From UHGV virus genome UHGV-0113711: 34,173 bases of DNA; one strand, 5' to 3'. Below are positions 31,075-31,781 of the stretch, one piece after another; positions within the stretch are counted from its first letter, which is position 1, and every line of letters begins with the position of its first letter. The notes beneath the pieces were generated by a model. That model was not told the origin of the DNA, did no database searches, and was given only the letters and a program-made list of their open reading frames with translations. The DNA comes from a virus. The position numbers were made by a program, and so were the translations under genes.

Positions 31075-31383
31075 ATGAATTTCGATGAAATGTTAGCATC
31101 ACTATCACCAAAACGCGAAGCTGTTGAAATCAACGGTTATAAATTCTATGCACGTCCGATGACTGTATCCGAGTTTGGTGAATTCTATTTCAAAAATGAA
31201 AACACAGAAGAACGTAATGACCGAATGATTCTAAATTGCATTCAGCACGAAGACGGAACAAGCGTTTTTAAAGAAATCGCTCAAGTTCAGAAACTTTATA
31301 CAACTGTTCGTTCGCAACTCGCAAGCGCTGTTTCAAACGCTAGTATTCTGACTAAGGATTCAGACGTTCTGGAAAAGAACTAA
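31075..31383 (+). CDS. Putative tail assembly chaperone (gpG-like)
   Basis: 102-aa acidic ORF immediately upstream of the tape-measure-like gene, with an overlapping -1 frame ORF, the arrangement typical of G/GT chaperones. Confidence 0.55.
   Translation: MNFDEMLASLSPKREAVEINGYKFYARPMTVSEFGEFYFKNENTEERNDRMILNCIQHEDGTSVFKEIAQVQKLYTTVRSQLASAVSNASILTKDSDVLEKN
31371..31377 (+). other. Candidate -1 programmed ribosomal frameshift site (GGAAAAG) joining the G-like and T-like frames
   Basis: The -1 frame is open from 31356 through 31781. The heptamer g-gaa-aag sits 4 codons before the G-frame stop and allows a Lys AAG-to-AAA slip; lambda uses GGGAAAG at the equivalent position. Confidence 0.4.
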
Positions 31384-31418
31384 GGCAGAACTGGGCAAAA
31401 TCATTTCAGTATCGAACA

Positions 31419-31781
31419 ATGTTACGTCGCGGATTATCAAACGAAGAAATTCAACAGATGTCCGTAATGATGTATTACGAATTATGGTTTTTCGACTCGT
31501 TTATTGAACCACAAAGTCCTGTCTATAACGATTTCTATCAAGCTCGATTGATTCACACTATCGAAGCAAATAACCCGAATCTGACCAAAGAGTACAGGAA
31601 AAAGTTGAACATGAAAGACCATCAGCTTATTAAAGATTCTGTGTTTAAGTCTCAAGAAGAAATCGAAAAAGAGAAAGAACAACAGGAGATTAAACGTAAG
31701 AAAGCTATTGAATCGATGTTCGACCCAGCTCTGTTAGATAAAGTTAAACTGAGAAAAACAAAAAAGGTGAATAATGGCTAA
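31419..31781 (+). CDS. Putative T-like segment of a GT frameshift fusion chaperone (first in-frame ATG shown; probably made as a fusion from 31075)
   Basis: ORF in the -1 frame relative to 31075..31383, open upstream to 31356; its end overlaps the tape-measure start. Confidence 0.45.
   Translation: MLRRGLSNEEIQQMSVMMYYELWFFDSFIEPQSPVYNDFYQARLIHTIEANNPNLTKEYRKKLNMKDHQLIKDSVFKSQEEIEKEKEQQEIKRKKAIESMFDPALLDKVKLRKTKKVNNG

What the first reader, a model, noticed from the sequence alone, without database searches (positions are those of the whole stretch)
31356..31420. Likely -1 programmed frameshift (GGAAAAG) producing a GT-type chaperone fusion
The frame of 31419..31781 is open from 31356 and overlaps the last 9 codons of 31075..31383. 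A g-gaa-aag site (31371..31377) sits in the overlap and permits a Lys-codon -1 slip. This mirrors the conserved G/GT tail-assembly chaperone frameshift found upstream of tape-measure genes.
Basis: partly seen in the sequence, partly recalled or inferred. Interest (0 to 1): 0.4.

Follow-up and report, generated by a model that had tools for sequence, protein, structure and literature searches.

The report
Phage tail chaperone G/GT frameshift site
In this E. coli prophage, two small genes just before the tail tape-measure gene are almost certainly joined by the usual phage -1 ribosomal frameshift, at a slightly non-standard slip site, so this is an unannotated example of a well-known mechanism.

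Summary
ORF1 (31075..31383, 102 aa) ends 0-frame CTG GAA AAG AAC TAA. The -1 frame is open from 31356 to 31781, and G_GAA_AAG lies at 31371..31377 inside the 28-nt overlap. A tape-measure gene follows at 31774.

Homologues form 15 clusters at 80% identity (about 31-99% identical to the window). Every one keeps the -1 arrangement, with an overlap of 10-55 nt holding exactly one in-register N_NNA_AAG. The Lys codon is always AAG, and the preceding codon varies: GAA, GTA, TTA or AAA.

The -1 frame is under protein-level selection upstream of the ATG at 31419. That Met is not conserved, and neither candidate start has a Shine-Dalgarno sequence. No start codon lies between the -1 stop at 31353 and 31419, so this stretch can only be read by ribosomes shifting out of ORF1.

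The predicted products are G (11.7 kDa) and GT (235 aa, 27.9 kDa, not about 220 aa). I found no conserved stimulatory RNA structure. The heptamer is non-canonical, an A_AAG type. Efficiency and the fusion protein itself are untested. It is a new member of a known kind.

The parts
31075..31383 (+). Gene G: tail assembly chaperone, 102 aa, 11.7 kDa, the product of ordinary translation
31353..31355 (+). TAA stop in the -1 frame; upstream limit of the region where a -1 shift can be productive
   Evidence: Read directly from the sequence.
31356..31383 (+). 28-nt overlap in which both the 0 frame and the -1 frame are open
   Evidence: The equivalent overlap in homologues is 10-55 nt.
31371..31377 (+). 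Slip site G_GAA_AAG. tRNA-Lys moves from AAG (31375-31377) back to AAA (31374-31376); tRNA-Glu would move from GAA to GGA
   Evidence: It is the only in-register NNA_AAG in the overlap. All 15 homologue clusters have N_NNA_AAG at the equivalent place. Lys is AAG in 15 of 15 clusters against a 28% background use of AAG.
31381..31383 (+). 0-frame stop of G, one codon (3 nt) after the slip site; a possible context stimulator
   Evidence: In 12 of 15 clusters the stop lies 0-1 codon after AAG.
31377..31781 (+). T segment: 134 codons in the -1 frame, translated only as the C-terminal part of GT (ELRQNWAKSFQYRTMLRRGL...)
   Evidence: The F-x-[YFL]-R motif lies upstream of the ATG at 31419, and its Arg uses all six Arg codons across homologues. 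No ATG, GTG or TTG occurs between 31356 and 31418. Relatives give sub-threshold hits to Pfam Phage_tail_T.
31419..31421 (+). ATG used by gene callers as the ORF2 start; most likely an internal Met of GT
   Evidence: The anti-SD duplex is +0.7 kcal/mol, against -2.7 to -8.7 for 16 other gene starts. The aligned residue is Ile in L005, L010, L012 and L015.
31774..34173 (+). Tape-measure protein gene (799 aa). Its start overlaps the end of T by 8 nt, the same overlap as lambda T/H
   Evidence: phrog_13674 at E 2.9e-73. The lambda T/H overlap is 10542..10549.
31353..31358 (+). SD-like UAAGGA 12 nt upstream of the heptamer; a possible but unproven upstream stimulator
   Evidence: The duplex with the anti-SD is -5.8 kcal/mol. 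It is not conserved: UAAGAA in the 93%-identical L008, and absent in more distant homologues.

Best explanation
31075..31781 is the G/GT tail-assembly-chaperone pair of an Enterobacteriaceae siphovirus-type prophage.

Most ribosomes translate ORF1 to its stop at 31381 and make G (102 aa), which has the chaperone fold of HK97 and lambda gpG-type proteins.

A minority shift back one nucleotide at G_GAA_AAG (31371..31377). The single E. coli tRNA-Lys (anticodon mnm5s2UUU) leaves AAG and re-pairs with the overlapping AAA. This happens either together with tRNA-Glu moving from GAA to GGA (G-C, G.U, A-U), or alone once Lys is in the P site.

Decoding then continues in the -1 frame at GAA (31377) to the stop at 31779..31781. 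The product is GT, 235 aa, with the junction ...DSDVLEK-ELRQNWAKSFQYR...

By analogy with lambda, G and the G part of GT coat the tape-measure protein encoded immediately downstream. The T part recruits the major tail protein. Neither ends up in the virion.

What is shown here: the frames, the site, the fold of G, the synteny, conservation of the signal, coding selection on the -1 frame upstream of any start codon, and the absence of a ribosome-binding site.

What is inferred: that the shift actually happens, its efficiency (expected to be low, a few percent or less), which tRNA movement is used, and the protein functions.
For: 1. Anatomy. The frames, the overlap and the heptamer register are as described.

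2. Synteny. The tape-measure gene starts at 31774 (phrog_13674, E 3e-73) and overlaps T by 8 nt, as lambda T/H does.

4. Conservation. 46 related loci give 28 distinct junctions and 15 clusters at 80% identity, and all intact ones keep the -1 arrangement. Each has exactly one in-register N_NNA_AAG:
- G_GAA_AAG
- A_GAA_AAG
- G_GTA_AAG
- A_GTA_AAG
- T_TTA_AAG (canonical; phage DCP80)
- A_AAA_AAG (canonical; the dnaX heptamer)
In L037 the overlap is only 10 nt: the heptamer plus the stop.

5. Synonymous-site signal. Lys is AAG in 15 of 15 clusters, although AAG is 22-28% of Lys codons. The preceding codon always ends in A.

6. The site sits 3 codons apart in two subgroups while the flanking protein alignment is ungapped. 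This argues that the signal is selected, not merely inherited.

7. The -1 frame between the site and 31419 is coding. F111 and R114 are invariant, and the Arg uses CGA, CGC, CGG, CGT, AGA and AGG. No start codon lies in 31356..31418.

8. There is no independent initiation signal. Anti-SD energy is +0.7 at 31419 and +0.1 at 31467, against -2.7 to -8.7 at 16 other starts. In L010 the first ATG of T is codon 79, and in L015 it is codon 30.

9. Six of 10 T segments give consistent sub-threshold hits to Pfam Phage_tail_T, the lambda T domain (E 7e-4 to 0.017, the same profile region). hhalign places lambda GT residues 155-215 on the same stretch (E 0.02).

10. Literature. A_AAG is the most shift-prone tetramer in E. 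coli (PMC4066793). NNA_AAG sites are used naturally, for example G_CGA_AAG in IS1222. The lambda G:GT ratio is 30:1, and the G-T frameshift is widely conserved (PMC5009743).
Against: - No protein, ribosome-profiling or reporter data exist for this locus.
- The heptamer is non-canonical: P-site re-pairing of GAA onto GGA needs a G.U pair at the middle position.
- In E. coli, tetramer motifs without a stimulator were barely above background (about 0.15% against 0.11%; PMC4066793).
- I found no stimulator. The 73 nt downstream fold worse than shuffles (z = +1.75). RNAalifold on 10 homologues predicts no pairs. The upstream SD-like UAAGGA is not conserved. Efficiency could therefore be very low.
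- The window's own ORF1 is below Pfam's gathering score (17.7 against 28.8 bits), and its own T segment gives no Phage_tail_T hit.
- The gene order is not the lambda order: the major tail gene is 6.5 kb upstream, with the J-like tip gene in between.
Confidence: 0.88

Rival explanations
1. ORF2 is an ordinary separate gene translated from its own start codon: ATG 31419 as most gene callers say, or ATG 31467 as PGAP says. The overlap and the GGAAAAG are incidental.
For: Public annotations call it this way, as two hypothetical proteins. An ATG exists at 31419. The chance of an in-register NNA_AAG in this one overlap is not negligible (about 0.03).
Against: Neither ATG has any Shine-Dalgarno complementarity (+0.7 and +0.1 kcal/mol against -2.7 to -8.7 for 16 neighbouring genes). 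The Met is Ile in four lineages, and the first ATG of the frame is codon 79 in L010. Amino-acid conservation with synonymous codon turnover extends 14 codons upstream of the ATG, right to the slip site. The slip site is conserved in 15 of 15 clusters. Annotators disagree on the start, which is typical of a frame with no real start.
Confidence: 0.05
2. T is made by termination-reinitiation. Ribosomes finishing G at TAA 31381 scan and restart at ATG 31419 without a frameshift, giving a separate 120-aa T protein coupled to G.
For: The stop and the ATG are only 35 nt apart. Translational coupling is common in phage late operons, and it would also explain the lack of an SD.
Against: This does not explain coding conservation of the -1 frame between 31377 and 31418, or the invariant A_AAG. 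Homologues without a nearby start codon could not use it (L010, L012, L015 and DCP80). In L005, L023 and L025 the G stop lies well inside the conserved T-frame sequence.
Confidence: 0.03
3. The shift is made at the RNA level. RNA polymerase slips on the A run and inserts or deletes a base in a fraction of transcripts, as in some IS elements and type III secretion genes.
For: The site contains an A run. Three lineages have A_AAA_AAG preceded by A, giving 7 consecutive A.
Against: The window has only 4 consecutive A. The G_GTA_AAG and A_GTA_AAG lineages have only 3, far below the runs of about 8-9 known to support productive transcriptional slippage (established knowledge; reviewed in PMC5009743). 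What is invariant is the codon register A_AAG, which matters to ribosomes, not to polymerase.
Confidence: 0.02
4. The two ORFs are a single gene broken by a frameshift mutation or a sequencing error, i.e. a pseudogene in a decaying prophage.
For: The prophage is rare, found in 6 of 5426 complete E. coli genomes, and its tail module has an unusual layout.
Against: The same -1 break at the same place is present in independent assemblies and in 15 diverged clusters from E. coli, Citrobacter, Klebsiella, Salmonella, Buttiauxella, a free phage and metagenomes. Both frames remain intact and conserved.
Confidence: 0.01

Closest known systems
Phage lambda gpG / gpGT (-1 frameshift at G_GGA_AAG; Levin, Hendrix and Casjens 1993; Xu, Hendrix and Duda 2004, 2013, 2014, as cited in PMC5009743)
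   Same: - Two ORFs sit directly upstream of the tape-measure gene, with the second in the -1 frame.
- The slip ends in A_AAG, read by the single tRNA-Lys.
- The site lies near the 3' end of G.
- T overlaps the tape-measure start by 8 nt in both.
- No conserved downstream RNA structure was found.
- The T parts show weak profile similarity.
   Different: - The P-site codon is GAA (G_GAA), not GGA (G_GGA), so the heptamer is non-canonical.
- The 0-frame stop is 1 codon after the site, against 5 in lambda.
- G is 102 aa against 140.
- Sequence similarity is only at profile level.
- The pair is not adjacent to the major tail gene in this prophage.
HK97 tail assembly chaperone (PDB 2OB9); Pfam PF16459 Phage_TAC_13; PHROG 344
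   Different: Identity to 2OB9 is 17%. The window protein itself scores below the Pfam gathering threshold (17.7 against 28.8 bits).
A_AAG tetranucleotide / NNA_AAG hexanucleotide -1 frameshifting in bacteria (IS1222 G_CGA_AAG; Bacillus cdd A_CGA_AAG; PMC5009743, PMC4066793)
   Same: The minimal slip element is A_AAG, with cognate re-pairing of tRNA-Lys onto AAA. The P-site codon does not re-pair perfectly. The expected efficiency is low.
   Different: Those cases use CGA, decoded through an inosine-A wobble, and IS elements usually add a downstream structure. This family uses GAA, GTA, TTA or AAA, and no structure was detected.
E. coli dnaX A_AAA_AAG frameshift
   Same: The A-site event is the same (AAG to AAA). 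Three homologue lineages (L025, L029, L037) carry exactly this heptamer.
   Different: dnaX has an upstream SD-like element and a downstream stem-loop giving about 50% shifting and a truncated product. Here there are no conserved stimulators, and the product is extended.
Pea enation mosaic virus G_GAU_UUU(_UGG_UAG) shift site (cited in PMC5009743)
   Same: The P-site context is the same non-canonical G_GA. A 0-frame stop codon lies 3 nt after the heptamer, and in PEMV that stop is needed for efficient shifting.
   Different: It is a eukaryotic RNA virus with a different A-site tRNA and long-range RNA structure. The role of the stop in the present case is untested.

Membership tests
Phage G/GT tail-assembly-chaperone programmed -1 frameshift (lambda type) | Two consecutive small ORFs immediately upstream of the tape-measure gene | tested here: met
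   ORF1 is 31075..31383 and ORF2's frame ends at 31781. The tape-measure gene is 31774..34173 (phrog_13674, E 2.9e-73).
Phage G/GT tail-assembly-chaperone programmed -1 frameshift (lambda type) | The pair lies between the major tail gene and the tape-measure gene | tested here: not met
   The major-tail-like gene at 24535..25011 is separated from G by the J-like tip gene, an endonuclease VII gene and others. In the homologous DCP80 locus, a 164-aa ORF I did not characterise sits directly upstream of G. This is synteny, not mechanism.
Phage G/GT tail-assembly-chaperone programmed -1 frameshift (lambda type) | The second ORF is in the -1 frame and open across the stop of the first | tested here: met
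   The overlap is 28 nt in the window and 10-55 nt in all 15 homologue clusters.
Phage G/GT tail-assembly-chaperone programmed -1 frameshift (lambda type) | A canonical X_XXY_YYZ slippery heptamer in the overlap | tested here: not met
   The window has G_GAA_AAG, where XXX = G,G,A. Canonical heptamers occur only in some homologues: T_TTA_AAG in L005, and A_AAA_AAG in L025, L029 and L037.
Phage G/GT tail-assembly-chaperone programmed -1 frameshift (lambda type) | A slip-prone site of the relaxed kind (Z_ZZN tetramer A_AAG in register), conserved among homologues | tested here: met
   15 of 15 clusters have one, with exactly one per overlap. Lys is always AAG, and the preceding codon always ends in A.
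Phage G/GT tail-assembly-chaperone programmed -1 frameshift (lambda type) | The downstream frame has no initiation signal of its own and is conserved as protein from the slip site onward | tested here: met
   There is no SD at 31419 or 31467. The Met is not conserved, and the F-x-Y-R motif with six Arg codons lies upstream of it.
Phage G/GT tail-assembly-chaperone programmed -1 frameshift (lambda type) | The upstream product has the tail-assembly-chaperone fold | tested here: met
Phage G/GT tail-assembly-chaperone programmed -1 frameshift (lambda type) | The fusion protein is made at a low, fixed ratio to G (about 1:30 in lambda) | not testable with these tools
   This needs a reporter assay, western blot or mass spectrometry.
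Phage G/GT tail-assembly-chaperone programmed -1 frameshift (lambda type) | Both G and GT are required for tail assembly and absent from virions | not testable with these tools
   This needs genetics on an inducible lysogen.
Pfam PF16459 Phage_TAC_13 | Score at or above the gathering threshold (28.8 bits) | tested here: not met
   The window ORF1 scores 17.7 bits, E 0.0047. Relatives P0007, P0013, P0014, P0016 and P0018 carry PF16459 in precomputed annotation, and 8 of 11 family members hit at E < 0.01.
Pfam PF06223 Phage_tail_T (lambda T domain) | Score at or above the gathering threshold (25.9 bits) | tested here: inconclusive
   The window T segment gives no hit. Six of 10 homologous T segments score 16-20.4 bits (E 7e-4 to 0.017) on the same profile region 13-72. 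hhalign against lambda GT gives E 0.02 at probability 2.4%.

The most novel reading that the evidence does not exclude
This whole prophage family makes GT through minimal single-tRNA slippage at A_AAG, with no RNA structure. The P-site codon is free to vary (GAA, GTA, TTA, AAA). The slip site has moved by three codons between sublineages. A 0-frame stop 0-1 codon downstream, present in 12 of 15 clusters, acts as the stimulator: a natural 'shifty stop' solution for setting a low G:GT ratio.
Probability: 0.3. Interest if true: 0.4.

Novelty: new member of a known kind. Interest (0 to 1): 0.25.

Why it matters
Practically, it corrects annotation. In public records the two ORFs are 'hypothetical protein' or, wrongly, 'cytochrome'. 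Gene callers disagree on the start of ORF2, and no record joins the two ORFs. A 235-aa GT product should be annotated for this prophage family in E. coli, Citrobacter, Klebsiella and Salmonella.

Scientifically, it adds a diverged lineage to the conserved G/GT frameshift. The series of natural variants (six heptamers, invariant A_AAG, no detectable RNA stimulator, a stop codon usually adjacent) could be used to study how weak, structure-free -1 shifting is tuned. It does not change what is known about the mechanism.

Tried and rejected
- Nucleotide search of the phage collection with 30600..32400 found nothing. The protein-level search found only phage DCP80.
- A profile search of PDB sequences with the GT alignment found nothing meaningful. 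The fold comparison was needed instead.
- Downstream stimulatory structure. The 73 nt after the site fold worse than shuffles (z = +1.75). The 161-nt context gives z = -0.10. RNAalifold on 10 homologues gives zero pairs. I rejected a conserved stem-loop or pseudoknot.
- Upstream SD-like stimulator. UAAGGA lies 12 nt upstream in the window, at the right spacing for dnaX-type stimulation. It is lost in the 93%-identical relative and absent elsewhere. I kept it only as a window-specific possibility.
Only G was modelled, so the T fold is untested.
- hhalign of the family profile against a single lambda GT sequence was weak (E 0.02, probability 2.4%). I do not use it as proof of T homology.
- Licznar et al. 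2003, which measured NNA_AAG efficiencies, is not held. I have no measured value for GAA_AAG or GUA_AAG.
- A literature search for GGAAAAG with frameshift and tail found nothing relevant.
- L009 lacks the arrangement, but its contig ends about 70 nt beyond the truncated ORF1, so it was excluded.

Full report
**1. What is in the sequence**

ORF1 runs 31075..31383 (102 aa) and ends in the 0 frame as ...GAC GTT CTG GAA AAG AAC TAA. The frame that holds the ORF 31419..31781 is the -1 frame relative to ORF1. It is closed by TAA at 31353..31355 and open from 31356 to the stop at 31779..31781.

The two frames are therefore both open for 28 nt (31356..31383). G_GAA_AAG lies at 31371..31377 in the register G|GAA|AAG.

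A -1 shift after the Lys codon gives a 235-aa product. It has 101 residues from ORF1 and 134 from the -1 frame, weighs 27.9 kDa, and has the junction ...DSDVLEK-ELRQNWAKSFQYRTMLRRGL.... This is not about 220 aa.

The heptamer is not a canonical X_XXY_YYZ. The A-site move from AAG to AAA is perfect. The P-site move from GAA to GGA needs a G.U pair at the middle position.

**2. Context**

The window is a siphovirus-type prophage of Enterobacteriaceae.
- The same DNA, 91-98% identical, is chromosomal in 6 of 5426 complete E. coli genomes. In strain E-93 the prophage lies next to ldtB/ybiR.
- Identical or related ORF1 proteins occur in E. coli, Citrobacter, Klebsiella and Salmonella.
- The gene after ORF2 (31774..34173, 799 aa) is a tape-measure protein (phrog_13674, E 2.9e-73).
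- Upstream lie a terminase, a portal, a head protein, tail fibre genes, a major-tail-like protein and a J-like tip protein.
- The end of the -1 ORF overlaps the tape-measure start by 8 nt, the same as lambda T/H.

**3. ORF1 is a tail assembly chaperone**

On its own, ORF1 hits phrog_344 'tail assembly chaperone' (E 1.5e-6). It hits Pfam Phage_TAC_13 only below threshold (17.7 against 28.8 bits). Across 11 diverged family members, 10 hit phrog_344 and 8 hit Phage_TAC_13.

- two further small proteins of unknown function, one of them from a PICI-like element

Scores then drop to 4.2.

The last ten residues, which contain the slip site, are predicted to be disordered. That fits a linker between a G domain and a T domain.

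**4. Comparative test of the frameshift**

Protein-guided scans of viral, genome and metagenome collections, plus a tblastn hit in phage DCP80, gave 46 loci. These comprise 28 distinct junction sequences and 15 clusters at 80% identity. Identity to the window is about 31-99%.

Every intact locus has the second frame in -1, open across the ORF1 stop, with an overlap of 10-55 nt. Each overlap contains exactly one in-register N_NNA_AAG:

| Heptamer | Loci |
|---|---|
| G_GAA_AAG | window, L008, L012, L013, L015 |
| A_GAA_AAG | L010, L031, L036 |
| G_GTA_AAG | L016, L018, L022, L038 group |
| A_GTA_AAG | L023 |
| T_TTA_AAG (canonical) | L005 (phage DCP80) |
| A_AAA_AAG (canonical, the dnaX heptamer) | L025, L029, L037 |

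In L037 the overlap is 10 nt, which is the heptamer plus the stop codon. The shift can happen nowhere else.

Background frequencies support a selected signal.
- In-frame NNA_AAG has a background frequency of 0.5-0.7% per codon pair. The chance of a site is about 0.03-0.05 for the window, depending on which background is used, and 0.007-0.10 per cluster.
- The naive product over clusters is 10^-21.8. It is inflated by shared ancestry but still decisive, because the heptamers differ.
- The Lys codon is AAG in 15 of 15 clusters, although AAG is only 22-28% of Lys codons. The preceding codon always ends in A. In the window's own codon usage GTA is only 12% of Val codons; the GTA-type sites occur in homologues.
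- The site sits three codons nearer the conserved T-frame motif in one subgroup than in the other, while the protein alignment across the junction is ungapped.

What is conserved is therefore the signal, not a particular stretch of DNA.

**5. The -1 frame is translated upstream of its ATG**

Between the slip site and ATG 31419 the -1 frame reads ELRQNWAKSFQYRT. The aligned segment in the homologues keeps an invariant Phe and Arg (F-x-[YFL]-R). The Arg is encoded by CGA, CGC, CGG, CGT, AGA and AGG in different lineages. That is protein-level purifying selection.

There is no ATG, GTG or TTG in the -1 frame between 31356 and 31418. Ribosomes arriving from ORF1 are the only way to read this stretch.

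The Met at 31419 is Ile in DCP80, L010, L012 and L015. In L010 the first ATG of the frame is codon 79.

Anti-Shine-Dalgarno duplex energies are +0.7 kcal/mol for 31419 and +0.1 for 31467, PGAP's choice of start. The 16 other gene starts of the late region give -2.7 to -8.7.

Independent initiation and termination-reinitiation are therefore poor explanations. A pseudogene or sequencing error is excluded by the conservation. Transcriptional slippage is unlikely, because the window has 4 consecutive A and some lineages only 3.

**6. The T part**

The window's T segment has no significant family hit. Six of 10 homologous T segments give sub-threshold hits to Pfam Phage_tail_T, the lambda T domain (16-20 bits against 25.9, the same profile region). 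hhalign places lambda GT residues 155-215 on the same stretch (E 0.02).

This is suggestive of remote homology but not established. I could not model the T fold.

**7. Mechanism and stimulators**

A_AAG is by far the most shift-prone tetramer in E. coli, which has a single tRNA-Lys that pairs better with AAA than with AAG. NNA_AAG sites are used naturally, as in IS1222 (PMC4066793 and PMC5009743). The same work shows that tetramers without a stimulator are barely above background.

I found no stimulator:
- No stable or conserved downstream structure.
- An SD-like UAAGGA 12 nt upstream is confined to the closest relatives.

The recurrent contextual feature is a 0-frame stop 0-1 codon after AAG, present in 12 of 15 clusters. 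In the window it reads AAG AAC TAA. It resembles the pea enation mosaic virus site G_GAU_UUU_UGG_UAG, where the stop matters (PMC5009743). Whether it matters here is untested.

Two routes lead to the same protein and cannot be told apart by sequence. One is a tandem P/A-site slip. The other is a slip of peptidyl-tRNA-Lys alone.

A low efficiency is what the lambda paradigm requires (G:GT about 30:1; PMC5009743).

**8. Comparison with what is known, and verdict**

This works like lambda G/GT. It meets most defining features that sequence analysis can test:
- position directly upstream of the tape-measure gene
- -1 overlap between the two ORFs
- a conserved slip-prone site
- no independent start for the downstream frame
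- the chaperone fold in G

It does not meet the strict canonical-heptamer criterion. It is not adjacent to the major tail gene in this prophage. Production of the fusion and its role in assembly cannot be tested here.

The finding is correct and useful for annotation. The mechanism is long established, so I rate it a new member of a known kind with modest interest.

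Noticed in passing
window 31075..31383 and homologues P0001-P0019: NCBI and UniRef name this protein 'cytochrome' in E. coli, Citrobacter, Klebsiella and Salmonella. It is a phage tail assembly chaperone by profile and fold, so the name looks like a propagated mis-annotation.
   Followed up: partly
window 31419 and 31467: Gene callers disagree on the start of ORF2. PGAP uses the ATG equivalent to 31467 (L056 6868..7182), and other pipelines use 31419. Neither has an SD. No public record seen here joins the two ORFs.
   Followed up: yes
window 31013..31040: A strong intrinsic-terminator-like hairpin (GGGAGC-CUCGC-GCUCCC followed by UUUUU) lies between the 105-aa ORF (30694..31011) and the start of G. 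It would separate G-T-tape measure from the upstream tail genes unless the late transcripts are antiterminated.
   Followed up: no
window 1515..5293 and 24535..34173: The tail module is split. The major-tail-like gene, the J-like tip gene and G/T/tape measure are on the + strand at the right end. A distal tail protein (4592..5293) and a 'tail protein' (3945..4592) are on the - strand at the left end, beside a 501-aa large serine recombinase (1515..3020). In E. coli E-93 the tape-measure gene is followed by two small reverse genes and then host ldtB. The order is unusual for a lambda-like tail.
   Followed up: no
window 29501..29977: An endonuclease VII gene (Pfam Endonuclease_7, E 1e-10; phrog_423, E 4e-36) sits inside the tail gene block, between the tip protein and the chaperone.
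   Followed up: no
L005 (Escherichia phage DCP80, PQ671644.1, 13777..16877): This 141-kb record is classified as Straboviridae/Tevenvirinae. It carries a siphovirus-type G, -1 T and tape-measure module with a canonical T_TTA_AAG, annotated as separate hypothetical proteins. Either the taxonomy or the assembly deserves a check.
   Followed up: partly
alignment A3 columns 105-115 (window 31369..31390): The slip site lies three codons further downstream in one subgroup (L005, L016, L018, L022, L023) than in the other (window, L010, L012, L013, L015, L025), with no gap in the protein alignment. The signal has been relocated during evolution.
   Followed up: partly
L028 (JBEBQJ010000175.1): A contig binned as a Sphingobacterium yanglingense MAG carries a G/T locus of this family, which otherwise has named hosts only in Enterobacterales. 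This is probably a binning error.
   Followed up: no
window 17653..19557: The 634-aa head protein matches both major-head and head-maturation-protease families (phrog_617, phrog_4523, phrog_80). This suggests a fused protease-capsid gene.
   Followed up: no
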